Shown one piece after another: positions 839 to 31,698 of a stretch of 35,918 bases of DNA; the first letter of the stretch is position 1; each line of letters begins with the position of its first letter. The DNA is taken from contig CAKZLX010000594.1 of the NCBI GenBank assembly GCA_937127265.1, positions 1-35,918 of the forward strand. The letters run 5' to 3'. The notes under the pieces were generated by a model, which was given only the letters and a program-made list of their open reading frames with translations, ran no database searches and was not told where the DNA came from. The translations under genes and the position numbers were made by a program. The DNA comes from an uncultured Pseudomonadota bacterium. GTDB lineage: Bacteria; Myxococcota_A; UBA796.

Positions 839-888
839 GTAGAACCTTAATTATGTTTGTACAACGAGTTGAAGTGAGAAATCGTATT

Positions 889-2241: not shown

Positions 2242-2249
2242 GCCCCGTT

Positions 2250-4726: not shown

Positions 4727-4752
4727 ACTGCCTCCTTGGTTGATGACTGCGA

Positions 4753-6833: not shown

Positions 6834-6862
6834 GGCTACATCCTCAGATTATGGTGTGGTGA

Positions 6863-7390: not shown

Positions 7391-7398
7391 GTCCGCTC

Positions 7399-11687: not shown

Positions 11688-11832
11688 GGGTTTCTCCAAA
11701 TAGATTGTACAGATTCAGTATACTCGATGTTTCAGACTGGCATCCAATTTGCATACCATTCATCTAGATTGTGGTCGGCAACTCGATTGAGATTGCGTTA
11801 CAATGTACACAATATAACTGGAGTTTTGGATC

Positions 11833-12801: not shown

Positions 12802-12877
12802 TCAACCGCGATTGAAATTCGGCATCAGAATTGCAACGGGATATATTGCACATCACTTATTTATTGAGGAACCTACC

Positions 12878-16659: not shown

Positions 16660-17619
16660 TTAGGGGGAGCAATAAAGCCCATCATGACCACACATACCAG
16701 CAGTACGTATTATTGAGTCTCGAGAAAGGGTTACACTCACCCCATTAGAATACATCCAATCGCGCCGCCAAACAATTTTGGGGACGTCCAGTGCCCAATG
16801 ATAAAATACCGTAGCCGTTGGTAAGTCGATTATATCGGGTTGTTCAAATACATACCCACCATAAAACTTGCTCACCAATGCCTGCGCCTGATCATAGGTA
16901 ATCGTTTCAAGATTGGGAAAGGAGATGTATTTCACCGTATCCCAAGAAGCGACCACCTCGGCTTCTTCAACACTGATTTGACGTACACCCAAGGTAAACT
17001 CACTTCGATGTGCATGCAAGTAAGCATAGGCTTCTGTATCTAATTGTTCCAAGCCAGCCAAATGCAATTCCCCAGAATAGACACTCCCTAAAGCCTTGGC
17101 ACTCTCTAGAGATAGAGTTTGTAAACCGTTGAGGTGAAACGACATGTATTGACCAGCAGGAACCAATGCCTTGGCCACATTCTCTGGTAGTTCGATTAAA
17201 CCATTCAATTCAATTGCGTTACCAGCAAACTTCGACAATGCTTTGGCAGAAGTTTCATCGAGTTCAGTCAGCCCATTTAATAGCAATGAAAAGCGACAAC
17301 TCTGCGGAGAACCAAAACCAATGTCGTAAAGGAATTTGGGGATTTCCGTAGAAAAAGCATAGAGATCATGGATCGTCTCTCTTGACAGTGTAACCGGTGG
17401 ATCATTAGGGTTCCACCTAGCGATCTGTTCAGCCTCTGCAGGTGTGATCGAGGTCAAGCCATTCAAGTGCAAATCACAAGAGTGATTTGGATTGGGAAAT
17501 TGAATCGTCCGAACGGCTTTATTATCCAAAGTGGTAAGCAGATTCATTTCAGGGTCTTCATACCGACATCCTGACGATAATAAGAGCATTCCCCACAACC
17601 AAACCCCTTGCTTTTTCAT
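16660..17619 (-). CDS. LRR-like repeat lipoprotein (paralog B)
   Basis: MKKQGVWLWGMLLLSSGC is a signal/lipobox. It has the same repeat (LHLNGLTSITPAEAEQIA, LLLNGLTELDETSAKALS, IELNGLIELPENVAKAL, FHLNGLQTLSLESAKAL, LHLAGLEQL). It shares LD.(T/K)AVRTI and GELHL with paralog A. Confidence 0.65.
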   Translation of the reverse strand: MKKQGVWLWGMLLLSSGCRYEDPEMNLLTTLDNKAVRTIQFPNPNHSCDLHLNGLTSITPAEAEQIARWNPNDPPVTLSRETIHDLYAFSTEIPKFLYDIGFGSPQSCRFSLLLNGLTELDETSAKALSKFAGNAIELNGLIELPENVAKALVPAGQYMSFHLNGLQTLSLESAKALGSVYSGELHLAGLEQLDTEAYAYLHAHRSEFTLGVRQISVEEAEVVASWDTVKYISFPNLETITYDQAQALVSKFYGGYVFEQPDIIDLPTATVFYHWALDVPKIVWRRDWMYSNGVSVTLSRDSIIRTAGMCGHDGLYCSP

Positions 17620-18762: not shown

Positions 18763-18836
18763 ATTTCTTCCTATTTACAGAAACGGTCTTGACGATTTGA
18801 TACAACACCATACGTTTGAGGGTGAAAAGGAGTATC

Positions 18837-19745
18837 ATGAACCGTAGCAAACACACCACCCGTTTTGGCACGATGCGCTATGAAATTACCGGCATCAAAA
18901 AAGATTTCGTCGGGGATATGTACCATACCCTGATGCGTTCTCCTTGGTGGACCTTGATGTTGTTGGCTTTTGGTTTGTATGTCACTTCGGCGATTGTCTT
19001 TGCTGGGCTATTGAACATTGGCAATGGTCATGTCATCGGGGCCAATACACCACTCGATTTATTTTGGTTCAGTGTGCAAACTTTGAGTACCATTGGCTAC
19101 GGAAACATGCATCCTGCCTCCAACTGGGCACATAGTTTGGTTTTGATAGAATCGTTTGTGGGCTTGGTGGAAACCGCAATCGTCACTGCGGTACTGTTTT
19201 CCAAGTTTTCTCGTCCCAAAGCACGCGTTGCTTTTTCTGAACACGCTGTATTGTTTGAAAGTCGAGAGCGTTTGTATCTGCAAATCCGTTTTGCCAACGC
19301 CAGAGGCTATGCCATCGTCAATGGTAAACTGAACCTTTCCGCACTGGTGAACCAACACGATGAGCAAGGAAACCCGATTCGTAGAATGATTAGTTTGCCC
19401 TTATTGCAAAAAGACATTCCCTTCTTTGGACTTAGTTTTACCGCTACTCACTGTTTATCAGAAGGATTTTTTGCTGGCAAGACCATGGAGGAAATGCACG
19501 AAGAACTGTTTCTGTTGATCATTTCCTTTCAAGGTATCGATGAAATTTTAGAACAAGAAGTTCGTGAACAACACTTCTATCGACCTGAAAAGATACTTGA
19601 ACACGCCCGTTATCAAGACATGGTGGTCCCTCACGATTGGGGTGCCGAAATGGATTTGAACAAACTGGATGATGTGATTGAAGAAGATATCTTGGAAATC
19701 CCTGACAGTGTGGCTCAACAGTCGGAATATGCCCAAATGGATTGA
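18837..19745 (+). CDS. Inward-rectifier-type K+ channel (KirBac-like)
   Basis: Two TM segments flank a pore helix with the TIGYG filter (19089-19103). A long beta-rich cytoplasmic C-terminal domain follows. Start at ATG 18837 preceded by AAGGAG; the track's start at 18816 is TTG. Confidence 0.85.
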   Translation: MNRSKHTTRFGTMRYEITGIKKDFVGDMYHTLMRSPWWTLMLLAFGLYVTSAIVFAGLLNIGNGHVIGANTPLDLFWFSVQTLSTIGYGNMHPASNWAHSLVLIESFVGLVETAIVTAVLFSKFSRPKARVAFSEHAVLFESRERLYLQIRFANARGYAIVNGKLNLSALVNQHDEQGNPIRRMISLPLLQKDIPFFGLSFTATHCLSEGFFAGKTMEEMHEELFLLIISFQGIDEILEQEVREQHFYRPEKILEHARYQDMVVPHDWGAEMDLNKLDDVIEEDILEIPDSVAQQSEYAQMD

Positions 19746-19781: not shown

Positions 19782-19855
19782 ATACTAAAGACAATTCGTT
19801 GTGAATATTCGGTCACTATCTATGGTGAACTGATCAAACAACATCAGGGGGCTCT

Positions 19856-22800
19856 ATGAATTGGTTTAATGCATCTGCGGTTTCAGTATTGTTGGTGGCT
19901 TGTGGAGACAAAGACACAGGCTTTGCTGAAGAAGACTACCAAGAAGGCAGTACAGCTGGTGATTGCACCGACAACTTTGACAACGACTTTGATGGACTGA
20001 AAGATTGTGAAGATGAGGGTTGTTCCGATGCTGCGGCTTGCCTTCCCGATGCTGAAAGAGATCAAGATGGCGATGGTTTCACTCCAACGGATGGCGACTG
20101 TGATGATTCTGATGCCTCTGTTTATCCGGGTGCAGAGGATGCTTGGTATGATGGGGTTGATGCAGACTGTGCTGGCAACTCCGATTACGACCAAGACCAA
20201 GACGGGTATGACTCTGATGAATATGGTGGAACCGACTGTGACGATAGCAACTCAAACATCAACACCGATGCCCAAGATACTTGGTATGACGGCATTGACT
20301 CCAATTGCGACGGACTCTCTGATTTTGACCAAGATGGCGACGGTGAAGATTCCACGGAATACAACGGGGTAGACTGCGACGATACCGATGCCACCATCAA
20401 CACAAGTGCTTCGGACACCTGGTATGATGGGGTTGACTCCAACTGTGATGGGGCTTCCGATTACGACCAAGATGGTGATGGCTATGACTCTGACCAATAT
20501 GGTGGCGCAGACTGCAACGACATGTCGGTAGCGGTGAACCCTGGAGCCACTGAAACTTGGTATGACGGGATTGATTCCAATTGCGATGGGCTCTCTGACT
20601 ACGACCAAGACGCTGATGGACAAGACTCTGGCAATTTTAACGGCACCGATTGTGACGACACCAACGACAGCATCTATCAAGGTGCACCCGATGCATGGTA
20701 TGACGGCATTGACTCTGACTGTGCTGGAAACTCTGATCACGACCAAGATGGCGACGGGCAAAACACCACTGCGGTTGGTGGGACAGACTGTGATGACACT
20801 GACCCCAATGAATATTTTGGCGCCACTGAAACTTGGTACGACGGTATTGATTCCAATTGCGATGGGCTCTCTGACTACGACCAAGATGGCGATGGTGACG
20901 ATGCACTACAATATGGGGGAACAGACTGCGATGACACCAACCCACTACTAAACACCAGTGCCATCGAAGTTTGGTATGATGGCGTCGACCAAGACTGTGA
21001 TGGACTCTCCGACTACGACCAAGATGGGGATGGTTTTGATGCACTACAATATGGTGGGACTGACTGCGATGACACCGATGCCACAATTTATGTGGGCGCG
21101 CCAGACTCTTTTTATGACGGCGTAGACTCAGACTGTGCTGGTGACAACGACTTTGACCAAGATGGTGACGGCCATCCCAGCATTACCTATGGTGGAACCG
21201 ACTGTAACGACTTCAATGCCGAGGTCTATGCTGGGGCAACCGACCTTTGGTACGACGGGATTGATTCCAATTGTGACGGTCTGAACGACTACGACCAAGA
21301 TGGCGATGGATTTGATTCAAGTGCACATGGAGGCAATGACTGCGACGATACCAATCCAAGTATCAGTCCGATCATGACCGACACTTGGTATGATGGTATC
21401 GACACCAATTGCGATGGGCTCAATGACTATGATGCCGACCAAGATGGATTTGATTCAATCGATCACGGTGGAACGGATTGTGACGATGATGATGCCACCA
21501 TCAATCCTGGCATAACCGATACTTGGTATGATGGTATCGACTCCGATTGTGACGGACTCAACGACTATGACCAAGACGGCGATGGATACCCAGCACAAAG
21601 CACTGGTGGGGACGACTGTGACGACACCAATGCCTCAGTCTATCCCGGTGCTTCTGACAGTTGGTATGATGGTGTTGACTCAAACTGTGATGGCTTGGCC
21701 GACTATGACCAAGATGGTGATGGATTTGATTCAGTCGATCATGGTGGAACAGACTGTGACGACACCAATGCTACCGTGTACGTTGGTGCCACTGAAACTT
21801 GGTATGATGGCGTCGACTCAAACTGTGACGGACTCAACGATTATGACTACGATGGTGATGGCGAGGATGCTTTGTTTGCAGGAGGAACCGACTGCGCCGA
21901 CAACAACCCCAACATCAACACCCAAGCCACCGAAATCTGGTATGACGGAACCGATCAAAACTGTGATGGCCTCTCTGATTTCGACCAAGATGGCGACGGA
22001 CAAGTGACCACCATTATTGGTGGACCAGATTGTGATGACACCGATCCCAGCGTCTACGATGAAGCCCCTGAGGTCTGGTACAACGACATCGACAACAACT
22101 GTGACGGGCTTTCCGATTTTGATCAAGATGGTGATGGATTCGACTCCGATCAATATGGCGGTACCGATTGTGATGACACCAATGAATACGTCAATACCGA
22201 TGCCTCCGATGCCAACTTGGATGGAATTGACAACGACTGTAACGGACAAATTGATGAAGGCGCACAAGCCGGTGATCAAGATGGCGATGGCTATGACGAA
22301 ACACAAGGCGATTGTGATGACGATGACCCCAATATCTATCCAGGTGCTCCGGACACTTGGTATGATGGCATCGATGCAGACTGTGCTGGTAACGATGACT
22401 ATGACCAAGATGGCGATGGTGACCCTTCCCGACAATATGGTGGTAGTGACTGTGATGATGGCGACAGCAGTACCTATGGTGGAGCCCCTGAAGTCTGGTA
22501 TGACGGCATTGACCAAGACTGTGGAAATGATTCCGACTACGACCAAGATGGTGATGGGCAAGAATCCATTGCTTTTGGTGGTTCTGACTGTAATGACATA
22601 GACCCCTCTGCTTATTTTGGTGCCACCGAAGTTTGGTATGATGGCGTTGATCAAAACTGTGATGCCCTCTCCGATTATGACCAAGACGGCGACGGGGTCG
22701 ACTCCGATCAATATGGTGGTTTAGACTGTGACGATACCGATGTCAGCACCTACATGGGTGCCGATGAAATCTGGTATGACGGCATTGATCAAAACTGTGA

Positions 22801-25800
22801 TGGTGCTTCTGACTATGACCAAGATGCCGACGGGCAAGATTCCGACCAGTATGGTGGGACCGACTGTGACGATATAGACGAAGATATTTATGTTGGTGCC
22901 ACAGATGTTTGGTATGACGGTAAAGACTCAAACTGTGATGGACTCGATGATGATGACCAAGATGGCGACGGAGAATACCCCATCTCCAGAGGTGGTCCAG
23001 ATTGTGATGATACTGATGCCAACATCAATACTTCGGCTGATGAAATTTGGTACGACGGCATCGATCAAAACTGCAATGATGACAATGATTTCGATGCTGA
23101 TGGTGACGGCTATGATTCTTACCTGCACGGTGGTACCGACTGTGACGATGAAGATGTCACCGCCTACCTTGGTGCCACTGAAATTTGGTACGACGGCATC
23201 GACCAGAATTGTATGGGTGACAACGATTTTGACCAAGATGGCGATGGGTTTGAATCAATTGACTATGGTGGGACCGACTGTGACGACACCAACCCACTCA
23301 CCAACCCCGATGCTTCTGATGCCAACTTGGATGGGGTCGACAACAACTGCGATGGGCAAATTGACGAAGACGGCCTACCCGGTGACCAAGATGGTGACGG
23401 ACAAGACGAATCACAAGGGGACTGTGATGATTCTGACCCCAACATTTACCTTGGTGCCCCCGATGCTTGGTATGATGGCATTGACTCCAACTGCGCTGGT
23501 CTGAACGACTTCGATCAAGATGGCGATGGGGAAGCCTCTGCCGACTACATGGGTTTTGACTGCAATGATACCGATGGCACCATCAATACCGATGCCACTG
23601 AGATTTGGTATGATGGCATTGATCAAGACTGTGCCGGAGACAATGACTACGATCAAGATGGCGATGGTGAAGACTCTGATCAATACGGTGGGACTGACTG
23701 TGACGATACCGACGCCACAATTTATGCTGACGCAAGAGAAATCTGGTATGACGGCATTGATCAAGACTGTAACGGTGGCAATGATTTTGACCGTGACTTG
23801 GATGGTGAAGAAGCCATCGAATATGGTGGAACCGACTGTTATGATCTTGATTCCACCATCAATACCCAAGCTTCTGATGCCAATACTGACGGCATTGACA
23901 ACGACTGCGATGGCGAAATCGATGAGGATGCCGAAGCCGGAGATGCCGATGGTGATGGATTTGATGAGGATGCTGGAGATTGTGATGACACCGATCCTAC
24001 TGTCTATCCTGGAGCGGTAGAGATTTGGTATGACGGACTCGACCAAAACTGTGACGGATTATCCGACTACGACCAAGATGGCGATGGTGATACCCATGAC
24101 CAATATGGTGGTAATGATTGTGATGATACCGATCCCACCATCCAAGTTGGTACCACTGAAATCTATTATGACGGGGTAGACCAAGACTGTGACGGTTGGT
24201 CTGACTTTGATGCAGATATGGATGGATTTGATTCTGCTGACTATGGCGGTACCGACTGTGATGACACGGATGGCACCGTCAGTCCTGCTGAGATTGAGAT
24301 CTACTACGATGGCTTTGATCAAAATTGCGATGGTCTCTCTGATTATGACCAAGATGGGGATGGGTTCGACTCGGACCAATATGGTGGAACCGATTGTAAT
24401 GATGGCGATGCCTTAATCAACCCTGATGCCGCTGATGACAACGGTGATGGTGCGGACGACAACTGCGATGGCACACCTGACGATGGCGTCATTGATTCTA
24501 ACGATCTCGATGGGGATGGCTATACACCTGATGCAGGCGATTGTGATGACGATGATCCGCCAATCAACCCTGAAGCAGACGAGGTTTATTACGATGGCAT
24601 CGACCAAGATTGTGACGGAATGTCTGACTACGATGTTGACTTTGATGGTGAGGATTCTGACCTATACGGTGGAACCGACTGCGATGATAGCAACCCATAC
24701 ATCAACACGTCTGCCTCCGACGCCAATTTGGATGGACTCGACAACGACTGCAATGGTCAAATCGATGATGGTGCGCAACCTGGTGATCAAGATGGCGATG
24801 GCTTCGATGAACTCTCTGGGGACTGCAACGATGAAGATGTGGCTATTTTCCCTGGTGCCACCGAGGTTTGGTACGATGGGGTCGATCAAGACTGTGCGGG
24901 TGACAACGATTTTGACCAAGATGGTGATGGTGAAATTTCCGACCAGTACGGTGGCTTTGACTGTAATGATACAGATCCCAACATCAATCCCGATGCCCTA
25001 GACATCAACAATGATGGGGTCGACGATGATTGTGACGGTACAGCAGACAACGGCAGTGTCAGTGCCGCAGACTTGGATGATGATGGTTTCTCCGAAGATG
25101 ACGGCGACTGTGATGATGCTGACCCAACCATCAACCCTGATGCTGTCGAAACTTATTATGATGGCATTGACGCTAACTGTGACGGGCTCTCCGACTTTGA
25201 TGCTGACCAAGATGGGGAAGACGCAATTGATTACAACGGTGCTGACTGTGATGATGCTGACCCCAACATCAACACTTCTGCCACGGAAATCTATTACGAT
25301 GGTATCGACCAAGACTGTAATGAACTCTCGGACTTTGATGCCGACCAAGATGGCGATGATTCAATCGACTATGGTGGATTGGACTGTGATGATGCTGACA
25401 CCTTTATCTACAGTGGTGCCACTGAAATTTGGTACGATGGCGTCGACCAAGATTGCAGTGGTGGTTCTGACTTTGACCAAGATGAAGATGGTGAGGACTC
25501 CATTGATTATGGTGGTACCGATTGCAATGACACCGATGCGTTTATCAACACCCAAGCATCTGACAACAATAATGATGGTATTGACGACGACTGCGATGGT
25601 ACTCCTGACAATGGTGGACAAATTACCGATTTTGATGGGGACGGCTATATCTCCGATCAGTTTGGCGGACTAGACTGTGATGACAATGACCCCAATATCA
25701 ACCCTGATGCCACTGATGACAATGGCGATGGCATTGATGACAACTGCGATGGGGTCGCTGACGACAGTGCCGATATGGATGGCGATGGCCTCAGTTTTAC

Positions 25801-28800
25801 CGAGGGTGACTGCGACGACAACGATCCTGACGTCTATCCAGGTGCTATCGACACTTGGTATGACGGCATTGACTCCGACTGCAATGGCGAATCCGACTTC
25901 GACCAAGATGGCGATGGGGAAGACGCTACCCAATATGGTGGTGTGGACTGTGACGATCAAAATCCACTGATCAACACCTCTGCCTCCGACGCTAACCTCG
26001 ATAATATTGACAATGACTGCAACGGACAAATTGATGATGGCGCAATTCCTGGTGACCAAGATGGCGATGGATACGATGAATCTCAAGGGGACTGCAATGA
26101 TGATGACCCTGACATCTACCCTGGAGCCACCGAGGTTTGGTATGACGGCGTAGACTCAGACTGTGCTGGTGACAACGACTTTGACCAAGATGGCGATGGC
26201 GAAGAACCTCTGGAATACAGTGGTACTGACTGTGATGATACCAATGTCGATGTCAACACATCCGGAGATGATAACAACAGCAACGGTATTGACGATGACT
26301 GCGATGGTGTAATTGACAATGGTGGAATCTCAACCGATCTGGATGGCGATGGCATCACCGAAGATGAAGGTGACTGTAACGACAACGACGCCGACATCTA
26401 TCCAGGTGCACCTGATGCTTGGTATGATGATGTGGATTCAGACTGTGCTGGCAACAACGACTTTGACCAAGACGGTGACGGCTATACTTCTGACCAGTTC
26501 GGTGGATTGGATTGTAATGATACCAATGAACTGATCAACCCCAGCATTACCGATGACAATGCCGATGGCGTTGATGATGACTGCGATGGTTCTGCCGACG
26601 AAGATGAGATTGACAATGATGGGGATGGCGTACGTAGTTCTGAAGGTGACTGTAACGACAACGACGCCACAATCAGTCCAAACGCCAATGAAATCTGGTA
26701 CGACGGGATCGATCAAAACTGTGACGATCTCTCTGACTACGACCAGGATGGCGATGGATACGACTCGGATCAATATGGTGGTACCGATTGTAATGACACC
26801 AGTGTCTATGTCTTCTTGGGTGCCAACGATCCATGGTATGATGGTGTAGACTCAGATTGTGGTGGCAACTCAGACTATGACCGTGACGAAGACGGCTATG
26901 ACTCGGTTGACTATGGTGGTACTGACTGCGATGACAACGATCTGCTGATCAATCCTGGAATCGTTGATGCCAACAACAACGGGGTCGATGATGACTGTGA
27001 CGGGCAGATTGATGAAGATGGTGCTACCGACAACGATGGCGATGGTTATACGACTGACAGTGGAGATTGTGATGATAGCGATGCCACAGTCTACCCTGGT
27101 GCGCCAGACAATTGGTACGATGGCACCGACTCTAACTGCGATGGAGCCAGTGACTATGACCAAGATGGCGATGGTGAAGACAGCATGGACCACGGTGGTA
27201 CCGACTGTATGGATATTGATGCCACCATCAATACCCAAGCCACTGAGATTTGGTACGACGGTGTCGATCAAAATTGCGATGGGCTCTCCGATTACGATCA
27301 AGATGGGGATGGTGAAGACTCGATTGATTACAACGGAACCGATTGCGAGGACACCAACGCGGCGATCAACACTTCGGCAACCGATGATAATGCTGACGGA
27401 GTCGATGACAACTGTAATGGTCTAACCGACGAAGGGTCTGACTTGGATGGGGATGGATTCTCGGTACTCGACGGAGATTGTAACGACGCCAATGTCAACA
27501 TCAACCCCAATGCCCAAGAGTTGTTCTATGATGGCGTAGATCAAAACTGCGATGGTCTCTCCGACTATGATATGGACGGTGACGGTGATGACAACGACCA
27601 ATTTGGTGGAACAGACTGTAATGATGACAACCCCGGTATCTATTATGGTGCACCGGAAACGTTCTATAATGGTAAAGATGAGGACTGCTTTGGCGACTCA
27701 GACTACGATGCCGACCAAGATGGGTTTGACTCTGATGCCTATGGTGGAACCGACTGTGACGATAGCAACGCCTTGATCAACCCCAATGCGGCTGACAACA
27801 CGGCCGATAACATTGACAACAACTGTAACGGACAAACCGATGAAGGTGTTGGTGGCGTAGACAACGATGGCGATGGATACACCAACCTTGATGGTGACTG
27901 TAACGACAACGATATCACCATCAATCCTGGTGCTAGCGAGATTTGGTACGATGGTGTTGATCAAAACTGTAATGGCGATGATGACTTCGATCAAGATGGC
28001 GATGGTGAAACTGCCGCTGGATATGGTGGAACCGACTGTGACGATACTGAAGCACTACTCAACAGCCAAACGGTCTGGTTTGCTGATAACGATGCCGATG
28101 GCTATGGAAATGGTGACGATACCCAAATGGGCTGTACCCAACCAGTGGGCTATATCTTTGACGAAGGTGATTGTAACGACAACAGTGAACACTCCTATCC
28201 CAATGCCGATGAGATCTGTGATGGGTTGGACAATGACTGTGATGACAGCATCCCATTAAATGAAATGGATCAAGACCAAGATGGATACGCCATCTGTGAT
28301 ATTCACATCGACGGTTGGCTGGGTGATGCCAATGTCGTGGGTGGTGGGGATTGTCAAGATGCCGATCCACAAATCAATCCAGGCGTCACTGAGGTCTATT
28401 ACAACAGTATAGACCAAGACTGTGACGGACTCTCAGACTTTGATGCCGATGGTGATGGTTTTGATTCTGATCAACATGGTGGTACAGACTGTGATGATAG
28501 CAATGCCCTCATCAACCCCAATGCCATCGATGACAATTTGGATGGCGTTGATGACAATTGTGACGGTGTGGCCGATGAGTCTGCGACAATTGTTGACAAT
28601 GACAACGATGGTTATACCAATGCTGACGGTGACTGTGATGATAACGATCCAACGGTTCATCCTAATGCCACCGAAGTTTGGTACGATGGTATTGACCAAG
28701 ATTGTGCTGGCGACAATGACTTCGATCAAGACCAAGATGGATTCGATTCAGCAGACTACAACGGTACCGACTGTGATGACACCGACGCCACAGTCTATGT

Positions 28801-30847
28801 AGGGGCAACGGACACTTGGTATGACGGAACGGACTCCAACTGTGACGGTGCCAATGACTTCGACCAAGATGGCGATGGTTTTGACTCGGATCAATATGGC
28901 GGCGACGACTGTAATGATGAAAGTGCCACTGTGTACGTGGGTGCCACCGATGCTTGGTATGACGGAATCGACGCTAACTGTGATGGACTAGACGATTACG
29001 ACCAAGATGGCGATGGCGAACGGGCAACTGCGCATGGTGGAGATGACTGTGACGATGAAAACCCACTGATCAACACCTCCGCCTCCGATAACAACGGTGA
29101 CGGTGTGGATGACAACTGTGACGGTGTCCCAGACGATGGTCTATCTGATGTGGATCAAGACCAAGATGGGTTCACCCCAACCCAAGGAGACTGTAATGAT
29201 GATGACAACACAGTATTCCCTGGTGCACCTGATGACTGGTATGATGGCATCGATTCCAACTGTGATGGCGCCAACGACTACGATCAAGATGGCGATGGAT
29301 TTGATTCGGATGGGTATGGTGGTATTGACTGTGACGATCTCAATGCCAACATCAGCCCTTCTACGGTTTGGTATGCCGATACTGATGCCGATGGTTTTGG
29401 AAACCCCAACAGCACCACCCAATCTTGTACCCAACCCAGTGGGTATGTCCAAGACAACAATGACTGTGACGACGGACGAGCACAAACCTATCCAAATGCA
29501 CCGGAACTCTGTGATGGACTGATCAACCAGTGTGGTGGGTCTCTCCCCAGTGATGAAGTAGACTTTGATGGGGACTTCTATGTGGAGTGTTCGATTGATG
29601 CCAACGGTTGGAACGGAGCACCAGCAATTCAAGGAGGCGATGACTGTGACAACACCGACGCCACTCGAAATCCTGGTGCTAGCGAAACGTGGTACAACGG
29701 CATTGATGAAAATTGTGATGGTGCCAGTGATTTCGACCAAGATGGTGATGGACAAGACAGTGCCGACCATAACGGCAACGATTGTGATGATACCGATGCC
29801 ACAATTTACCTTGGTGCCACCGACACTTGGTACGATGGGGTCGATAGCAACTGTGATAGCGCCAACGACTATGACCAAGATGGCGACGGTTTCATGGCTT
29901 CTGCCTACAATGGCTTGGACTGTAATGATACCAATGCCTTGATCAACCCAAGTAGCCCTGACGATCAAGGTGATGGGGTTGATGACAACTGTGACGGATA
30001 TGCTGACGAAGCCCTTCTGGAAACTGCCAACGACCTTCAAACAGGTGCAATACTGGTGACTGAAGTGATGCAAAATCCGGATGTGGTCAGTGATGTCAAC
30101 GGCGAATGGTTTGAAGTATTCAACAGCACCAACTCCGACATCAACCTGATTGGCTTGCAAATCAGCGACTTGGGTACCGATTCATTCACCATCGATCGTA
30201 CCTTGGTGGTGGAATCCAACGACTATGTGGTTTTGGGTAAAAATGGAGATACCACTGCCAATGGTGGTATCGAGATTGACTTTGCCTATGGTTCACAAAT
30301 GACCCTCAGCAACACCGAAGATGAAATTGTCTTGGGGAATGATTTGGGACTGTTGGACATGGTGGCTTGGGACAATGGACAAACCTTCCCTAATCCAACG
30401 GGGGCATCAATGAACCTCGATCCATCGTTCTACAGTGAAACCGACAACGATGATGGGTCCAACTGGTGTGAACCCACCACTGCGATGGCTTCCGGTGACT
30501 TGGGTACGCCTGGGGTGGAAAATGACGCTTGTGGTGGTACCGTCCAACAATACACCTATGCCAACGACATTTTGCCGATTTTGAACGGGTCTTCTTGTAC
30601 GGGATGCCACAGTAACCAGTTCTCCAGTTTGAACACACTGTTAAACACCCAATCGGGTGACTACTCTGGTTCAAATGCGGCTGCCAACATGCCGTGGATT
30701 ACCCCGGGCGACGCGACCAATTCCTACATGTACTTGAAGATTCAAGGTACTACAGCCTATGGTAGTCAAATGCCACAAGGTGGTGCACCGATTTCAGCGG
30801 TCGATCAACAAATCATCGAGCAATGGATCATTCAAGGTGCCCAATGA
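19856..30847 (+). CDS. Giant (3,663 aa) hyper-acidic repeat lipoprotein: MopE-like/TSP3-like Cys-pair repeats + lamin-tail domain + cytochrome c-like C-terminus
   Basis: A single uninterrupted frame. An in-frame TGA at 19826-19828 leaves no earlier start. MNWFNASAVSVLLVAC has a lipobox. There are about 71 tandem units of consensus GGTDCDDTdatIn.gAtE.WYDG.D.nCDGlsDYDQDGDG.dsdqY. A C-terminal LTD and a CTGCH motif follow. Confidence 0.9.
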   Translation: MNWFNASAVSVLLVACGDKDTGFAEEDYQEGSTAGDCTDNFDNDFDGLKDCEDEGCSDAAACLPDAERDQDGDGFTPTDGDCDDSDASVYPGAEDAWYDGVDADCAGNSDYDQDQDGYDSDEYGGTDCDDSNSNINTDAQDTWYDGIDSNCDGLSDFDQDGDGEDSTEYNGVDCDDTDATINTSASDTWYDGVDSNCDGASDYDQDGDGYDSDQYGGADCNDMSVAVNPGATETWYDGIDSNCDGLSDYDQDADGQDSGNFNGTDCDDTNDSIYQGAPDAWYDGIDSDCAGNSDHDQDGDGQNTTAVGGTDCDDTDPNEYFGATETWYDGIDSNCDGLSDYDQDGDGDDALQYGGTDCDDTNPLLNTSAIEVWYDGVDQDCDGLSDYDQDGDGFDALQYGGTDCDDTDATIYVGAPDSFYDGVDSDCAGDNDFDQDGDGHPSITYGGTDCNDFNAEVYAGATDLWYDGIDSNCDGLNDYDQDGDGFDSSAHGGNDCDDTNPSISPIMTDTWYDGIDTNCDGLNDYDADQDGFDSIDHGGTDCDDDDATINPGITDTWYDGIDSDCDGLNDYDQDGDGYPAQSTGGDDCDDTNASVYPGASDSWYDGVDSNCDGLADYDQDGDGFDSVDHGGTDCDDTNATVYVGATETWYDGVDSNCDGLNDYDYDGDGEDALFAGGTDCADNNPNINTQATEIWYDGTDQNCDGLSDFDQDGDGQVTTIIGGPDCDDTDPSVYDEAPEVWYNDIDNNCDGLSDFDQDGDGFDSDQYGGTDCDDTNEYVNTDASDANLDGIDNDCNGQIDEGAQAGDQDGDGYDETQGDCDDDDPNIYPGAPDTWYDGIDADCAGNDDYDQDGDGDPSRQYGGSDCDDGDSSTYGGAPEVWYDGIDQDCGNDSDYDQDGDGQESIAFGGSDCNDIDPSAYFGATEVWYDGVDQNCDALSDYDQDGDGVDSDQYGGLDCDDTDVSTYMGADEIWYDGIDQNCDGASDYDQDADGQDSDQYGGTDCDDIDEDIYVGATDVWYDGKDSNCDGLDDDDQDGDGEYPISRGGPDCDDTDANINTSADEIWYDGIDQNCNDDNDFDADGDGYDSYLHGGTDCDDEDVTAYLGATEIWYDGIDQNCMGDNDFDQDGDGFESIDYGGTDCDDTNPLTNPDASDANLDGVDNNCDGQIDEDGLPGDQDGDGQDESQGDCDDSDPNIYLGAPDAWYDGIDSNCAGLNDFDQDGDGEASADYMGFDCNDTDGTINTDATEIWYDGIDQDCAGDNDYDQDGDGEDSDQYGGTDCDDTDATIYADAREIWYDGIDQDCNGGNDFDRDLDGEEAIEYGGTDCYDLDSTINTQASDANTDGIDNDCDGEIDEDAEAGDADGDGFDEDAGDCDDTDPTVYPGAVEIWYDGLDQNCDGLSDYDQDGDGDTHDQYGGNDCDDTDPTIQVGTTEIYYDGVDQDCDGWSDFDADMDGFDSADYGGTDCDDTDGTVSPAEIEIYYDGFDQNCDGLSDYDQDGDGFDSDQYGGTDCNDGDALINPDAADDNGDGADDNCDGTPDDGVIDSNDLDGDGYTPDAGDCDDDDPPINPEADEVYYDGIDQDCDGMSDYDVDFDGEDSDLYGGTDCDDSNPYINTSASDANLDGLDNDCNGQIDDGAQPGDQDGDGFDELSGDCNDEDVAIFPGATEVWYDGVDQDCAGDNDFDQDGDGEISDQYGGFDCNDTDPNINPDALDINNDGVDDDCDGTADNGSVSAADLDDDGFSEDDGDCDDADPTINPDAVETYYDGIDANCDGLSDFDADQDGEDAIDYNGADCDDADPNINTSATEIYYDGIDQDCNELSDFDADQDGDDSIDYGGLDCDDADTFIYSGATEIWYDGVDQDCSGGSDFDQDEDGEDSIDYGGTDCNDTDAFINTQASDNNNDGIDDDCDGTPDNGGQITDFDGDGYISDQFGGLDCDDNDPNINPDATDDNGDGIDDNCDGVADDSADMDGDGLSFTEGDCDDNDPDVYPGAIDTWYDGIDSDCNGESDFDQDGDGEDATQYGGVDCDDQNPLINTSASDANLDNIDNDCNGQIDDGAIPGDQDGDGYDESQGDCNDDDPDIYPGATEVWYDGVDSDCAGDNDFDQDGDGEEPLEYSGTDCDDTNVDVNTSGDDNNSNGIDDDCDGVIDNGGISTDLDGDGITEDEGDCNDNDADIYPGAPDAWYDDVDSDCAGNNDFDQDGDGYTSDQFGGLDCNDTNELINPSITDDNADGVDDDCDGSADEDEIDNDGDGVRSSEGDCNDNDATISPNANEIWYDGIDQNCDDLSDYDQDGDGYDSDQYGGTDCNDTSVYVFLGANDPWYDGVDSDCGGNSDYDRDEDGYDSVDYGGTDCDDNDLLINPGIVDANNNGVDDDCDGQIDEDGATDNDGDGYTTDSGDCDDSDATVYPGAPDNWYDGTDSNCDGASDYDQDGDGEDSMDHGGTDCMDIDATINTQATEIWYDGVDQNCDGLSDYDQDGDGEDSIDYNGTDCEDTNAAINTSATDDNADGVDDNCNGLTDEGSDLDGDGFSVLDGDCNDANVNINPNAQELFYDGVDQNCDGLSDYDMDGDGDDNDQFGGTDCNDDNPGIYYGAPETFYNGKDEDCFGDSDYDADQDGFDSDAYGGTDCDDSNALINPNAADNTADNIDNNCNGQTDEGVGGVDNDGDGYTNLDGDCNDNDITINPGASEIWYDGVDQNCNGDDDFDQDGDGETAAGYGGTDCDDTEALLNSQTVWFADNDADGYGNGDDTQMGCTQPVGYIFDEGDCNDNSEHSYPNADEICDGLDNDCDDSIPLNEMDQDQDGYAICDIHIDGWLGDANVVGGGDCQDADPQINPGVTEVYYNSIDQDCDGLSDFDADGDGFDSDQHGGTDCDDSNALINPNAIDDNLDGVDDNCDGVADESATIVDNDNDGYTNADGDCDDNDPTVHPNATEVWYDGIDQDCAGDNDFDQDQDGFDSADYNGTDCDDTDATVYVGATDTWYDGTDSNCDGANDFDQDGDGFDSDQYGGDDCNDESATVYVGATDAWYDGIDANCDGLDDYDQDGDGERATAHGGDDCDDENPLINTSASDNNGDGVDDNCDGVPDDGLSDVDQDQDGFTPTQGDCNDDDNTVFPGAPDDWYDGIDSNCDGANDYDQDGDGFDSDGYGGIDCDDLNANISPSTVWYADTDADGFGNPNSTTQSCTQPSGYVQDNNDCDDGRAQTYPNAPELCDGLINQCGGSLPSDEVDFDGDFYVECSIDANGWNGAPAIQGGDDCDNTDATRNPGASETWYNGIDENCDGASDFDQDGDGQDSADHNGNDCDDTDATIYLGATDTWYDGVDSNCDSANDYDQDGDGFMASAYNGLDCNDTNALINPSSPDDQGDGVDDNCDGYADEALLETANDLQTGAILVTEVMQNPDVVSDVNGEWFEVFNSTNSDINLIGLQISDLGTDSFTIDRTLVVESNDYVVLGKNGDTTANGGIEIDFAYGSQMTLSNTEDEIVLGNDLGLLDMVAWDNGQTFPNPTGASMNLDPSFYSETDNDDGSNWCEPTTAMASGDLGTPGVENDACGGTVQQYTYANDILPILNGSSCTGCHSNQFSSLNTLLNTQSGDYSGSNAAANMPWITPGDATNSYMYLKIQGTTAYGSQMPQGGAPISAVDQQIIEQWIIQGAQ
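20057..30007 (+). repeat. In-frame tandem coding repeat, basic period 138 nt (46 codons), about 71 units
   Basis: I counted units by their first-Cys motif (xDC[DN]D). A representative unit, TDCDDTDATINTSASDTWYDGVDSNCDGASDYDQDGDGYDSDQYGG, has 46 aa, of which 14 are Asp and 2 are Cys. Confidence 0.85.
30050..30478 (+). other. Lamin-tail domain (LTD) within the giant protein
   Basis: ILVTEVMQNPDVVSDVNGEWFEVFNSTNSDINLIGLQISDLGTDSFTI..YVVLGKNG.. matches the bacterial LTD pattern (INE..nP.g.D..gEw.EL.N.....dLsGw.l.d) as I recall it. Confidence 0.75.
30551..30844 (+). other. Planctomycete-type cytochrome c (PSCyt1-like) domain with CxxCH
   Basis: YANDILPILNGSSCTGCHS (CTGCH at 30596-30610) ..WITPGDATNSYMYLKI..QMPQGG.PIS..QQIIEQWIIQGA fits the remembered PSCyt1 pattern (PIl..C..CH ... 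PG.p..S ... MP ... WI..GA). Confidence 0.7.
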
Positions 30848-31698
30848 TAGTGTTCAGTTGTCTGACAGTATTGGGCTTTTTCACGCAAAATGTATTTGCC
30901 AAAGAAGCTCAAACCGTAGACCTCACCGGCTATTGGGAATCGGAAAGTGGTGTCAAAGTATTCATTCCGATTATGCGAGATGGACCGATGCCCTTGGTGT
31001 TGATGAACAAAAAACCAACCGTACTCATGGGCAAGTGGGACTGGGCTAGCCAAACACTGCAAGTCAATAACTCTCGATTTTCGATGGTGGAAAATCGATT
31101 GGTGATGACCAATAATAAAGTCACCCAAACCCATCAGCGACTGCAGACGCTCACCCCACAATTTAACCACGGGATTTGGTATCACGAGGGCAAAGGCGAA
31201 CTGCTCATCAGCAACGACGGTAAAACAGAGTGGATCATTCAAATCCCACCCTCACAACAAGCCACTATTCACAAAGCCAAATGGCGGCCCGAAAACGAAG
31301 TGTTAAAAGTCAGACTGGATGGTCGATGCACCCTTGACTGGTTGTATGAGCCGGATGACAACGACTTGATGTACATGCTCTGTCCCAACACCGAACACGA
31401 CTGGTTGCGGATTCACAAACCGACCACCTTTCAAACTGTCGATTGGTCAGGCACTTGGACATCCAAGCAAGGTTGGACTTTGGAAATGGATATGAGCGGA
31501 CAGCAATTTGGTAAGGTGTACATCGAATCCGAAGAACGAATCATTGACTTTACTGCCAGTTGGATCGGGCGTTCTGAAGGACACAGTATTCTGTTGGAAC
31601 GCAAAAAAGAATCCAACGCCATTCTGTCTGTGGACCCCAATCTCCCCGCGCGAGCTACCTTGCGTATTGATGGCTTGGACATTGTCTTTACCCGTTAA
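30844..31698 (+). CDS. Secreted protein of unknown function with three GxW-initiated internal repeats
   Basis: ATG 30844 overlaps the giant gene's TGA 30845-30847 (ATGA). MIVFSCLTVLGFFTQNVFA looks like a signal peptide. There are three ~90-aa segments beginning LTGYWESESG, NHGIWYHEGKG and WSGTWTSKQG. Confidence 0.6.
   Translation: MIVFSCLTVLGFFTQNVFAKEAQTVDLTGYWESESGVKVFIPIMRDGPMPLVLMNKKPTVLMGKWDWASQTLQVNNSRFSMVENRLVMTNNKVTQTHQRLQTLTPQFNHGIWYHEGKGELLISNDGKTEWIIQIPPSQQATIHKAKWRPENEVLKVRLDGRCTLDWLYEPDDNDLMYMLCPNTEHDWLRIHKPTTFQTVDWSGTWTSKQGWTLEMDMSGQQFGKVYIESEERIIDFTASWIGRSEGHSILLERKKESNAILSVDPNLPARATLRIDGLDIVFTR

What the first reader, a model, noticed from the sequence alone, without database searches (positions are those of the whole stretch)
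19856..30847. 3,663-aa hyper-acidic lipoprotein: about 71 tandem Cys-pair/Asp-rich units capped by a lamin-tail domain and a c-type haem motif
Seen directly:
- One 10,992-nt ORF occupies 31 percent of the window.
- The N-terminus has a lipobox (LLVAC).
- About 3,300 aa are 46-aa units. Each has two Cys and roughly 30 percent Asp (14 of 46 in a unit I counted), including a DYDQDGDG segment resembling thrombospondin-type-3 / DxDxDG Ca-binding loops.
- An LTD and a CxxCH domain follow.

From memory, the units are a variant of the 'putative metal-binding motif' (MopE-like) common in Myxococcota. I do not recall that motif iterated about 70 times and fused to LTD plus PSCyt1.

Inference: this is a surface-anchored, disulfide-stapled polyanionic fibre with very large Ca2+/metal binding capacity and a redox-capable or haem-sensing tip. 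Adhesion, biomineral or metal sequestration, and extracellular electron transfer are all possible roles. None is demonstrated.
Basis: partly seen in the sequence, partly recalled or inferred. Interest (0 to 1): 0.85.

Follow-up and report, generated by a model that had tools for sequence, protein, structure and literature searches.

The report
Giant calcium-stalk lipoprotein with cytochrome tip
A marine Myxococcota-like bacterium encodes an intact 388-kDa lipoprotein in which about 72 aspartate-rich, cysteine-paired repeats, probably stiffened by calcium, form a very long stalk carrying a binding domain and a single-haem cytochrome at its far end; this arrangement has not been described and its job is unknown.

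Summary
ORF 19856-30847 is intact: 3,663 aa, 26% Asp, 17 Lys+Arg. Cysteines are spaced exactly 23 residues apart almost throughout, giving about 72 units of 46 aa. Pfam finds 66 MopE-motif matches and one lamin-tail domain (LTD).

The last ~100 aa are a real class-I-type monohaem cytochrome c. CxxCH and a distal Met are invariant in 13 relatives, and the best solved match is FoxE. The PSCyt1 label is sub-threshold for this protein.

It is not an assembly artefact:
- Units are only 60-76% identical in DNA.
- The longest exact repeat is 53 nt.
- Four orthologues are collinear at about 70% identity and differ mainly by whole-unit indels.
- A long-read contig carries a syntenic locus of about 10.6 kb.
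- dN is about 0.21 while dS is saturated.

The conserved part of the family is lipobox + acidic spacer + C-terminal LTD-cytochrome head. Spacer length runs from about 70 to about 3,300 aa.

Best reading: a Ca2+-rigidified, disulfide-stapled stalk that holds a one-electron redox head far from the membrane. The name "Cu-binding" is not supported. Cellular location, Ca2+ binding, haem attachment and the physiological partner are all inferred. I rate it a new variant of the giant repeat-stalk surface proteins.

The parts
19856..30847 (+). Complete giant ORF, 3,663 aa plus stop, 388 kDa.
   Evidence: GC3 is 0.47, like the neighbouring genes. Orthologues are collinear.
19846..19851 (+). Shine-Dalgarno-like AGGGGG just upstream of the ATG.
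   Evidence: An in-frame TGA at 19826-19828 rules out a longer N-terminus.
19856..19903 (+). Signal peptide with lipobox (MNWFNASAVSVLLVA|C16). Cys16 is the predicted lipidated residue.
   Evidence: Conserved in L001. Similar xxAC-G-[DE]-K lipoboxes occur in P0009, P0016, P0028, L005 and L006. There is no K/R in the n-region.
19904..20098 (+). Acidic N-terminal cap (residues 17-81). It includes a 4-Cys module, CTDNFDNDFDGLKDCEDEGCSDAAAC (residues 37-62, nt 19964-20041).
   Evidence: No Pfam hit. The motif resembles the teneurin C-rich core listed in PMC3278476; this is by eye only.
20099..30007 (+). Repeat array, residues 82-3384. It holds 146 Cys at 23-aa spacing, about 72 units of 46 aa. Consensus: C-D-D-T-D-x-x-I-x-P-G-A-x-E-x-W-Y-D-G-I-D-x-N-C-D-G-L-S-D-Y-D-Q-D-G-D-G-x-D-S-x-x-Y-G-G-T-D. 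Variant units with 22-28-aa second halves recur every 2-8 units.
   Evidence: The AF2 model of 4 units has pLDDT 94.9 and almost no regular secondary structure.
28037..28351 (+). Inserted module 1 (residues 2728-2832): classical multi-Cys MopE-type unit, WFADNDADGYG...C..P.GY...DCND...PNADEICDG.DNDC.
   Evidence: Conserved in position in L001 at 71% identity.
29330..29644 (+). Inserted module 2 (residues 3159-3263), a paralogue of module 1.
   Evidence: Conserved in L001 at 83% identity.
30038..30535 (+). Lamin-tail domain (Ig-like), residues 3395-3560. It includes the nearly invariant Cys3538/Cys3559 pair.
   Evidence: Pfam PF00932, 39.2 bits. AF2 pLDDT 89.8 for the LTD-plus-cytochrome model. 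Foldseek matches the lamin A/C and B1 Ig-folds at E 1e-4, probability 1.0. Conservation.
30551..30844 (+). C-terminal monohaem class-I-type cytochrome c domain (residues 3566-3663).
   Evidence: Alignment A1. The PDB profile search gives FoxE at E 9e-7, plus c552 and c6. There are 374 relatives, mostly small stand-alone cytochromes. The AF2 model is helical.
30596..30610 (+). Haem-attachment motif C3581-T-G-C3584-H3585.
   Evidence: Invariant in 13 of 13 family members.
30770..30772 (+). Met3639, the predicted distal axial haem ligand (the Q-M-P motif).
   Evidence: Invariant in 13 of 13. It aligns with the MP of both FoxE haem domains.
30823..31698 (+). Downstream 291-aa secreted protein of unknown function. 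Its start overlaps the end of the giant gene by 25 nt, so it is probably co-transcribed.
   Evidence: Signal-peptide-like N-terminus, and found only next to the giant orthologues L001-L004. No Pfam hit.

Best explanation
The gene encodes a lipid-anchored cell-envelope protein built as anchor, stalk and head.

The stalk (residues 82-3384):
- It is a chain of about 72 small non-globular modules.
- Each module is closed by one disulfide. There are 146 Cys, an even number.
- Each module is probably packed around two or three Ca2+ ions held by about ten invariant Asp positions, Asn and backbone carbonyls. This would give roughly 150-220 Ca2+ per molecule.
- In seawater these sites would be full. 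Ca2+ would therefore act structurally, turning a chain with about -1,000 net charge into a stiff, protease-resistant rod.
- The rod would be of the order of 100-200 nm long. This is a rough estimate by analogy with 40-45-aa Ca2+-binding modules.

The head (residues 3395-3663):
- It is the conserved working part of the family.
- The lamin-tail Ig-like domain most likely docks onto a polymer or partner.
- The His/Met-ligated monohaem cytochrome c carries one electron.
- The stalk sets how far from the membrane the head operates.

What is shown:
- the domain identities;
- invariance of the haem ligands;
- purifying selection and positional orthology of the units;
- a family-wide constant head with a variable stalk.

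What is inferred:
- lipidation and surface exposure;
- disulfides and Ca2+ binding;
- haem attachment;
- rod shape and length;
- the redox partner. My guess for the partner is an extracellular or envelope-associated electron donor or acceptor that small periplasmic cytochromes cannot reach.
For: The gene is real and selected:
- The ORF is intact over 10,992 nt.
- Units are 60-76% identical in DNA, and the longest exact repeat is 53 nt.
- L003, L004 and L086 align collinearly at 70-72% identity over 2,100-2,500 residues. Their larger indels are mostly whole units of 46 or 48 aa. L002 aligns at 63% over about 800 residues.
- dN is about 0.21 in the repeats, the same as in the head, while dS is saturated.
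- The long-read contig L001 carries a syntenic locus of about 10.6 kb.

The stalk is modular:
- Invariant positions per unit are D, C, D, D, C, D, D, D, D, G, D.
- The AF2 model of 4 units has pLDDT 94.9 with almost no helix or strand.
- The only solved-structure sequence matches are the single MopE motifs of MopE* and acyloxyacyl hydrolase.
- A MopE-like core in the teneurin C-rich domain binds three Ca2+ in a thrombospondin-type-3-like manner in a 1.5 A crystal structure (PMC9058538). The link of that core to PF11617 is from PMC3278476.
- His is 0.4% and Met 0.6% of residues, so soft-metal ligands are lacking.

The head is the constant part:
- LTD by Pfam and by Foldseek.
- Cytochrome c by invariant CxxCH and Met, and by profile matches.

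The stalk is the variable part:
- P0009 and P0016 (about 435 aa), L005 (887 aa), L006 (about 1,240 aa, two cytochrome domains) and P0405 (2,134 aa, an LTD-rich stalk with no MopE array) are all lipoproteins that end in LTD plus cytochrome c.

The acidity is specific to this protein: cytoplasmic neighbours have ordinary pI values.

The organism makes c-type cytochromes: a cbb3 oxidase cluster and a CcdA/DsbD-like gene are in the window.
Against: - No tool here predicts lipoprotein processing or location. The signal peptide lacks a positively charged n-region.
- Ca2+ binding rests on motif resemblance and one literature analogy. Pfam TSP_3 does not hit. Foldseek finds no structural relative of the repeat model.
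- A single haem at the end of a cofactor-free stalk has no obvious route to pass electrons back to the cell.
- Gene neighbourhoods of family members give no conserved redox partner.
- The role of bacterial LTDs is unknown (PMC6085458).
Confidence: 0.55

Rival explanations
1. Cation sink or mineral nucleator. In this reading the polyanionic array is itself the functional part. It would buffer or sequester Ca2+, Fe, Mn or rare-earth ions, or template mineral formation on the cell surface. The LTD-cytochrome end would be accessory.
For: There are 962 Asp residues and 119 D.D.DG motifs. MopE-family proteins are annotated as 'putative metal-binding'. A FoxE-like cytochrome would fit oxidation of Fe(II) followed by capture of Fe(III) on carboxylates.
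Against: - The units have invariant Gly, Cys and aromatic positions and a confident AF2 model. These are features of folded structural modules, not of loose polyanions.
- Family members with only 2-3 units keep the head, so a large binding capacity is not what the family conserves.
- In seawater Ca2+ and Mg2+ would occupy carboxylate sites permanently.
- No conserved His or Met is available for Cu.
Confidence: 0.15
2. Periplasmic membrane-tethered respiratory electron carrier, like cytochrome c_y or the lipoprotein cytochromes c of Gram-positive bacteria. The anchored cytochrome would shuttle electrons to the cbb3 oxidase. The long acidic region would be a compact Ca2+-loaded mass or a periplasmic Ca2+ store.
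For: The layout lipobox, linker, C-terminal class-I monohaem cytochrome c matches that of tethered cytochromes. A complete cbb3 oxidase cluster lies 10 kb upstream. Haem attachment happens in the periplasm.
Against: - A 3,300-aa stalk, conserved unit by unit among orthologues, is neither needed nor easily housed in a periplasm. Periplasm width is general knowledge, not measured here.
- The LTD is always present next to the cytochrome and has no role in such carriers.
- The gene is not in the cco operon. It is separated from it by about ten unrelated genes on both strands.
Confidence: 0.15
3. Long-reach adhesin. The LTD would be the binding tip for a polymer, cell or particle. The cytochrome domain would be a redox or ligand sensor, or a stabilising cap, rather than an electron carrier.
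For: Variable stalk length with a constant distal domain is the hallmark of surface adhesins. Multi-LTD giants of up to 7,265 aa are common. Bacterial LTDs have been proposed to target proteins to membranes or membrane-associated structures (PMC6085458).
Against: CxxCH and Met are invariant in every family member examined, and the domain is duplicated in L006. This argues that redox-active haem is central rather than accessory. This rival overlaps the best explanation and differs from it only in emphasis.
Confidence: 0.12
4. Assembly artefact or decaying pseudogene: a collapsed or chimeric repeat region that only looks like one ORF.
For: Orthologues in short-read assemblies are always cut by contig ends. 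The long-read copy, L001, is broken into many short ORFs.
Against: - No stop codon in 10,992 nt.
- The longest exact repeat is 53 nt and units are 60-76% identical.
- Four independent assemblies are collinear with the window, with mostly whole-unit indels.
- dN is about 0.21 while dS is saturated.
- The L001 locus has nearly the same length and the same flanking genes. Its frameshifts fit long-read indel errors.
Confidence: 0.02

Closest known systems
MopE-related or 'putative metal-binding motif-containing' proteins (Pfam PF11617), abundant in Myxococcota
   Same: The first half of every unit plus the start of the second half matches the 30-residue Pfam model: 66 stretches, 1,294.7 bits. Thousands of relatives exist, many named MopE-related or carrying MYXO-CTERM.
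   Different: - Most units here have lost the middle Cys of the classical motif. WYDG replaces 'E.CDG'.
- They have gained a second, 23-aa DxDxDGDG half that the Pfam model does not cover.
- About 72 copies stand in one chain.
- The copper site of MopE* itself (His132, His203, Kyn130) lies outside the motif. The motif-bearing N-terminus is invisible in the MopE* crystal (PMC3423442).
Thrombospondin type-3 repeats and the teneurin C-rich domain
   Same: Asp-rich D-x-D-x-D-G-type loops are interleaved with disulfides, there is little secondary structure, and the period is about 23 residues. The teneurin-4 C-rich domain binds three Ca2+ through eight acidic residues in a T3-like way (PMC9058538). 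An earlier study aligned that core with PF11617 (PMC3278476).
   Different: No significant Pfam TSP_3 hit. No thrombospondin or teneurin entry appears among the PDB sequence-profile matches at E<=1. No Foldseek match. The Cys pattern differs, with two Cys per 46 aa. The resemblance is a lead, not membership.
Giant Ca2+-dependent repeat adhesins (RTX/BIg type, such as the Marinomonas ice-binding adhesin) and the Cys-rich stalk of Myxococcus TraA
   Same: A membrane-proximal anchor, a long array of small repeats acting as an extender, and a functional domain at the far end. For TraA the authors proposed that the Cys-rich repeats serve as a rigid stalk presenting the PA14 domain (PMC3325183). The RTX adhesin comparison is from my own knowledge.
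   Different: - The anchor here is an N-terminal lipobox, not a type-I secretion retention module or MYXO-CTERM.
- The repeat is a MopE variant, not a BIg or TIGR04201 repeat.
- No RTX or BIg family appears in Pfam.
- The tip is a cytochrome, not a lectin or ice-binding domain.
PSCyt1 / FoxE-type and other small class-I c-type cytochromes
   Same: - CxxCH near the start of the domain.
- An invariant Met about 54 residues later.
- A C-terminal amphipathic helix ending W-I-x-x-G-A.
- The profile matches both haem domains of FoxE (5mab, E 9e-7), as well as c552 and c6.
- 7 of 13 family members touch PSCyt1 at E<=1.
- Some of the 374 relatives carry PF07635 or PF13442.
   Different: - This protein scores 13.6 bits, against a PSCyt1 gathering score of 22.
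- No PSCyt2 or PSD1 partner domains are present.
- It has one haem, whereas FoxE has two.
- No FoxY or FoxZ neighbours are present.
- No described member of these families sits at the end of an LTD on a giant stalk.
Surface lipoprotein cytochromes (MtrC/OmcA) and tethered cytochromes (cytochrome c_y)
   Same: A lipid- or membrane-anchored c-type cytochrome that works outside the cytoplasm. This comparison is from my own knowledge.
   Different: MtrC and OmcA are decahaem proteins that sit on a porin-cytochrome conduit. Cytochrome c_y has a linker of about 70 residues and stays in the periplasm. Here there is one haem, about 3,300 spacer residues, and no conduit genes nearby.

Membership tests
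Pfam PF11617 Cu-binding_MopE (putative metal-binding motif) | HMM score above the gathering score of 27 bits | tested here: met
   1,294.7 bits in 66 stretches. Two-unit and inserted-module fragments also hit, at E about 1e-16.
Pfam PF11617 Cu-binding_MopE (putative metal-binding motif) | Copper coordination as in MopE* (two His plus kynurenine) | tested here: not met
   The Cu(I) ligands His132, His203 and Kyn130 lie outside the motif, and the motif region is absent from the crystal (PMC3423442). The units have no conserved His, and His is 0.4% of residues.
Thrombospondin type-3 repeat (Pfam PF02412) | Significant match to the TSP_3 model | tested here: not met
   No hit at E<=0.01 on the whole protein, nor at E<=10 on a two-unit fragment.
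Thrombospondin type-3 repeat (Pfam PF02412) | D-x-D-x-D-G-type Ca2+ loops in tandem | tested here: met
   D.D.DG occurs 119 times against 8.8 in shuffles. D.D.DGDG occurs 37 times against 0.3.
Thrombospondin type-3 repeat (Pfam PF02412) | Bound Ca2+ and inter-repeat disulfides in a structure | not testable with these tools
Foldseek found no PDB relative.
Lamin tail domain (Pfam PF00932) | HMM score above the gathering score of 34.3 bits | tested here: met
   39.2 bits, E 9.8e-10, residues 3395-3505, model positions 4-107 of 109.
Lamin tail domain (Pfam PF00932) | Ig-like beta-sandwich fold of lamin tails | tested here: met
   AF2 pLDDT 89.8. Foldseek top 15 hits are all lamin A/C, B1 or B2 Ig-folds; the best 12 have E 1e-4 to 6e-4 and probability 1.0.
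PSCyt1, Planctomycete cytochrome C (Pfam PF07635) | HMM score above the gathering score of 22 bits | tested here: not met
   No PSCyt1 hit at E<=10 on a 149-aa C-terminal fragment. 13.6 bits, E 0.1, on the isolated 108-aa domain. 7 of 13 relatives hit at E<=1, best 9.1e-5.
PSCyt1, Planctomycete cytochrome C (Pfam PF07635) | Usual company of PSCyt2 / PSD1 domains in the same protein | tested here: not met
   Only MopE and LTD are found in the protein.
Class I c-type cytochrome | CxxCH haem-attachment motif conserved across relatives | tested here: met
   C26, C29 and H30 are invariant in 13 of 13.
Class I c-type cytochrome | Conserved distal Met ligand and terminal helices | tested here: met
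   M84 is invariant. The AF2 model has helices before the CxxCH and at the C-terminus. The profile aligns end to end with FoxE, c552 and c6.
Class I c-type cytochrome | Covalently bound haem | not testable with these tools
   Needs haem staining or mass spectrometry.
Bacterial lipoprotein | Lipobox [LVI][ASTVI][GAS]C after a hydrophobic stretch, with Cys at position 15-35 | tested here: met
   L-V-A-C16 follows AVSVLL. It is conserved in L001 and in shorter family members.
Bacterial lipoprotein | Lys or Arg in the n-region (the PROSITE PS51257 rule, from memory) | tested here: not met
   MNWFNAS has no K or R. No alternative upstream start exists.
FoxE Fe(II) oxidase system | Dihaem protein encoded with foxY (PQQ protein) and foxZ | tested here: not met
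   One CxxCH only. No PQQ or FoxZ-like neighbour. System description from PMC10654088.
RTX / BIg giant adhesins | RTX nonapeptide or BIg repeats and a type-I secretion signal | tested here: not met
   No such Pfam family is hit. The protein has an N-terminal signal peptide instead.

The most novel reading that the evidence does not exclude
The protein is a tethered extracellular electron shuttle. A single cytochrome sits on a Ca2+-stiffened line of about 0.1-0.2 um. It exchanges electrons with particles, minerals or neighbouring cells beyond the cell surface, while the LTD grips the target. The head would return electrons either by swinging back to the surface or through many such molecules forming a redox-active brush. 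This would be a third design for extracellular electron transfer, beside multihaem conduits/nanowires and soluble shuttles. It would also give the widespread MopE motif its first defined role, as a Ca2+-dependent spacer module.
Probability: 0.12. Interest if true: 0.85.

Novelty: new variant of a known kind. Interest (0 to 1): 0.6.

Why it matters
MopE motifs are found in at least 1,826 proteins in the one search I ran, many from Myxococcota, yet they have no established function, and their Pfam name points to copper without evidence. Here the motif forms a 3,300-residue array that is conserved unit by unit, and in shorter relatives it is interchangeable with other spacers. That gives a concrete, testable role: a calcium-dependent structural extender.

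The constant LTD-cytochrome c head defines a family of lipoproteins for which I found no description in the held literature. These proteins place a one-electron carrier at controllable distances from the membrane. If the head acts outside the cell, marine Myxococcota-like bacteria would have an unrecognised way of exchanging electrons with their surroundings.

The repeat is also a compact, cysteine-stapled, confidently modelled module with no solved structural relative. That makes it a good target for structural work.

Tried and rejected
- **PSCyt1 by direct Pfam scan.** No PSCyt1 hit on the whole protein at E<=0.01 or on a 149-aa C-terminal fragment at E<=10. The isolated 108-aa domain scores 13.6 bits, below threshold. 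I therefore used a family alignment, a PDB profile search and a protein profile search instead.
- **Pfam TSP_3 and NCBIfam.** No hits.
- **Foldseek of the 4-unit model against the PDB.** Nothing below E=4. The acyloxyacyl hydrolase match covers 47 columns and reflects one shared MopE motif.
- **The acyloxyacyl hydrolase structure paper.** Not held, so I make no claim about Ca2+ in that motif.
- **Ca2+ site of MopE*/CorA.** It lies in the beta-sheet core that CorA shares with MopE*, not evidently in the N-terminal motif, so it is not evidence for the motif.
- **Exact look-up of the giant protein in public assemblies.** Not on record.
- **Genome scan with the wide alignment A2.** It failed for lack of conserved columns. 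I repeated it with A4.
- **Gene-neighbourhood approach to function.** Only close orthologues share neighbours. The contexts of the short member P0019 and of the Tara orthologue fragment P0002 show no redox partner.
- **Search of representative proteins.** It was swamped by multi-LTD giants, so it could not count proteins with this exact architecture.
- **Repeat-profile protein search.** The 120 listed hits are all <=345 aa, so it could not show whether other MopE giants are named.
- **Super-repeat periodicity.** Mean identity does not depend on the offset between units.
- **Halophile-type acidity.** Rejected, because cytoplasmic neighbours have normal pI.
- **dS.** Saturated, so only a bound on dN/dS is available for the repeats.


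Full report
**1. The observation**

The window holds one uninterrupted ORF at 19856..30847 (+), 3,663 codons. An AGGGGG ribosome-binding-like site sits just upstream. An in-frame TGA nine codons before the ATG rules out a longer N-terminus.

- Composition: 26.3% Asp, 13.2% Gly, 4.2% Cys, and only 17 Lys+Arg. Net charge is about -1,067 and mass is 388 kDa.
- Cytoplasmic neighbours have ordinary pI values, and third-position GC matches the neighbours. The acidity is therefore a property of this protein, not of the proteome, and the gene looks native.

**2. Anatomy**

- *Signal and lipobox.* Residues 1-16 are a short signal peptide ending in L-V-A-C. It lacks a basic n-region. The VACGDKD context is kept in the orthologue L001, and similar lipoboxes head all complete shorter relatives.
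- *N-terminal cap.* Residues 17-81 are an acidic cap with a four-Cys module.
- *Repeat array.* From residue 82 to 3379 there are 146 Cys, almost all exactly 23 residues apart. Two half-units alternate:
  - the first half is C-[DN]-D-x-D-x-x-I-x-P-G-A-x-E-x-W-Y-D-G-I-D-x-N;
  - the second half is C-D-G-L-S-D-Y-D-Q-D-G-D-G-x-D-S-x-x-Y-G-G-T-D.
- *Pfam coverage.* Pfam PF11617 (Cu-binding_MopE) matches the first half plus the start of the second half, in 66 stretches. The D-x-D-x-D-G-D-G second half lies outside that model.
- *Variant units.* Units with a 22-28-residue second half recur every 2-8 units. Fifteen regular units run uninterrupted at the N-terminal end.
- *Inserted modules.* Two 105-residue modules of the classical multi-Cys MopE type are inserted at residues 2728-2832 and 3159-3263. 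They are conserved in position in L001.
- *Head.* A lamin-tail domain follows at residues 3395-3505 (Pfam 39.2 bits, above the 34.3 cut-off). The final ~100 residues carry C-T-G-C-H.

**3. Is it real?**

- Adjacent units are 65-76% identical in DNA, and all regular units average 62%.
- The longest exact repeat in the gene is 53 nt.
- Related assemblies carry the same gene: L002, L003 and L004 (MAGs titled uncultured proteobacterium or Myxococcota) and L086 (a JGI metagenome). Every copy runs off a contig end.
- L003, L004 and L086 align collinearly with the window at 70-72% identity over 2,100-2,500 residues. Their larger indels are mostly whole units of 46 or 48 residues. L002 aligns at 63% over about 800 residues.
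- Positional identity (about 70%) exceeds unit-to-unit identity within the protein (about 58%). The units are therefore individually orthologous, not homogenised.
- dN against these orthologues is about 0.21 in the repeats, the same as in the globular head. Synonymous sites are saturated.
- A 139-kb long-read, Pilon-polished contig (L001) has the same order: Kir-type channel, a repeat locus of about 10.6 kb, then the 291-aa gene. The repeat locus there is broken into short ORFs, as expected from long-read indel errors.
- An artefact or pseudogene is therefore very unlikely.

**4. The head**

- *LTD.* An AF2 model of residues 3386-3663, built on 35 sequences, has pLDDT 89.8. Foldseek places its first half on the Ig-folds of lamins A/C and B1 (E 1e-4, probability 1.0).
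- *Cytochrome, direct scan.* The whole protein and a 149-aa C-terminal fragment gave no PSCyt1 hit. The isolated 108-aa domain scores 13.6 bits, E 0.1, below the cut-off of 22.
- *Cytochrome, family evidence.*
  - An alignment with 12 relatives shows invariant C-x-x-C-H, an invariant Met 54 residues later (the Q-M-P motif), and an invariant W-I-x-x-G-A C-terminal helix.
  - A profile of that alignment matches both haem domains of FoxE, the dihaem Fe(II)-oxidising cytochrome of Rhodobacter ferrooxidans, at E 9e-7. It then matches cytochromes c552, c6 and c551 (PMC10654088).
  - It also finds 374 proteins, mostly stand-alone cytochromes of 100-200 residues, some carrying PF07635 or PF13442.
  - Seven of the 13 aligned members touch PSCyt1 at E<=1.
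- *Conclusion.* The domain is a His/Met class-I-type monohaem cytochrome c, distantly allied to PSCyt1 and FoxE. It is not a PSCyt1 member by Pfam's own criterion.
- The window encodes a cbb3 oxidase cluster and a CcdA/DsbD-like protein, so the organism matures c-type cytochromes.

**5. The family**

A search with the LTD-plus-cytochrome region gave 61 proteins, all 485 aa or shorter.

- P0009 and P0016: lipobox, a Thr/Asp/Glu-rich low-complexity linker, 2-3 MopE motifs, LTD, cytochrome c.
- P0018, P0019 and P0021: lipobox, another N-terminal region, Asp/Gly-rich stretches, LTD, cytochrome c.
- L005 (887 aa): LTDs alternate with pairs of WYDG-type units.
- L006 (about 1,240 aa): about six WYDG units, about four classical MopE units, and two cytochrome domains.
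- P0405 (2,134 aa): a lipoprotein whose stalk is rich in LTD copies with no MopE array, again ending in LTD plus cytochrome c.

What the family conserves is the lipid anchor and the distal LTD-cytochrome head. The spacer varies in both material and length, from about 70 to about 3,300 residues. The window protein and its orthologues are the extreme case.

Neighbouring genes give no functional clue. Only close orthologues share the downstream 291-aa secreted protein and the 523-aa and 257-aa pair. Other family members sit in unrelated contexts.

**6. What the repeats do**

- The AF2 model of four units, using the protein's own 58 four-unit windows as the alignment, is very confident (pLDDT 94.9). 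It has almost no helix or strand. This is typical of ion-organised, disulfide-stapled modules.
- It has no structural relative in the PDB by Foldseek.
- By sequence profile, the only meaningful solved matches are the single MopE motifs of MopE* (residues 5-44, E 1.5e-6) and of acyloxyacyl hydrolase.
- The MopE* literature shows that its Cu(I) site (His132, His203, kynurenine 130) is elsewhere. The N-terminal 46 residues that carry the motif are missing from the crystal (PMC3423442). The Pfam name therefore gives no evidence of copper binding.
- The units have no conserved His or Met.
- A MopE-like core was noted in the teneurin Cys-rich region (PMC3278476). The 1.5 A structure of that domain shows three Ca2+ ions bound by eight acidic residues, two of them as in thrombospondin type-3 repeats (PMC9058538).
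- D-x-D-x-D-G motifs are 13-fold enriched over shuffles.
- My inference is that each unit binds two or three Ca2+, and that its two Cys take part in disulfides; the Cys count in the array is even.
- Relatives come from Tara Oceans, marine and lagoon assemblies. In seawater such sites would be saturated, which makes Ca2+ structural.
- A rigid, protease-resistant extender is the role that fits the length variation across the family and the unit-by-unit conservation among orthologues.
- The same logic was proposed for the Cys-rich repeats of Myxococcus TraA (PMC3325183). It is also known, from my own knowledge, for the Ca2+-bound repeats of giant RTX adhesins.
- The length of 100-200 nm is a rough analogy-based guess. 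I could not read the model coordinates.

**7. What remains open**

- Lipidation, the membrane and face on which the protein sits, disulfides, Ca2+ binding and haem attachment are all inferred.
- The function of bacterial LTDs is unknown. Membrane or structure targeting has been suggested (PMC6085458).
- A single haem at the end of a cofactor-free stalk cannot by itself wire the cell to a distant partner. The head must either act locally or return to the surface.
- I therefore commit only to 'anchor, Ca2+-stiffened stalk, LTD-docked one-electron carrier'. I rank three narrower functions as rivals: cation sink or mineral nucleator, periplasmic tethered respiratory carrier, and adhesin with an accessory haem.

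**8. Novelty**

Every domain is known. Giant repeat-stalk surface proteins are a known kind, and multi-LTD giants are common. Three things are new as far as these searches show:
- the MopE-variant array of about 72 positionally conserved units;
- its use as a spacer;
- the constant LTD-cytochrome c tip.

No paper in the held library links LTD and cytochrome c in bacteria, and only two papers mention PF11617. I rate it a new variant of a known kind, of moderate to high interest.

Noticed in passing
window 2432-9893 (- strand): A complete cbb3-type oxidase cluster. CcoN and CcoO are fused in one 780-aa ORF (7551-9893). The cluster also has FixP (6863-7390), FixG (5412-6833), a DsbD_2/CcdA-like protein (4753-5412) and a CcoI-type copper ATPase (2432-4804).
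   Followed up: no
window 18816-19745 (+): A bacterial inward-rectifier (KirBac-like) K+ channel lies directly upstream of the giant gene. It matches Pfam IRK, IRK_C and Ion_trans_2. L001 has the same gene order.
   Followed up: partly
window 30823-31698 (+), 33000-34571 (-), 34593-35366 (-): Three genes without any Pfam hit stay next to the giant gene in L001-L004. They are a 291-aa secreted protein whose start overlaps the giant's stop by 25 nt, a 523-aa polytopic membrane protein, and a 257-aa lipoprotein-like protein that is 79-83% identical across the orthologous loci where it is found (L001, L003, L004). L085 shows unannotated genes of similar sizes in the same order. They may be partners of the giant protein.
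   Followed up: partly
window 15724-16599 and 16660-17619 (- strand): Two adjacent lipoprotein-like ORFs, apparently paralogous, with repeated 'LNGL...' leucine-rich segments. Neither has a Pfam hit.
   Followed up: no
window 10215-13876: Three very acidic ORFs (pI about 4; secretion not tested). One is a 494-aa protein with HYDIN/ASH-type Ig-like and PKD domains, one is a 322-aa protein with a PPC domain, and one is a 365-aa unknown.
   Followed up: no
window 20099-30007; units listed: Each 46-aa unit keeps four aromatic positions (W19, Y20, Y/F33, Y/H/F45). They probably form the small core of the unit. The regular string of Trp and Tyr along a stalk that ends in a haem is noted but not interpreted.
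   Followed up: no
L007 (CAYVQL010000104.1), open frame 2-8410: Another truncated giant of at least 2,803 aa, with 18% Asp and 64 Cys. It has an LTD but no CxxCH. The MAG is titled 'uncultured Enterobacterales'; its many LTD-family loci suggest the label may be unreliable.
   Followed up: no
P0301-P0331: Many proteins of up to 7,265 aa carry 10-18 LTD copies. LTD arrays in giant proteins appear to be widespread in metagenomes.
   Followed up: no
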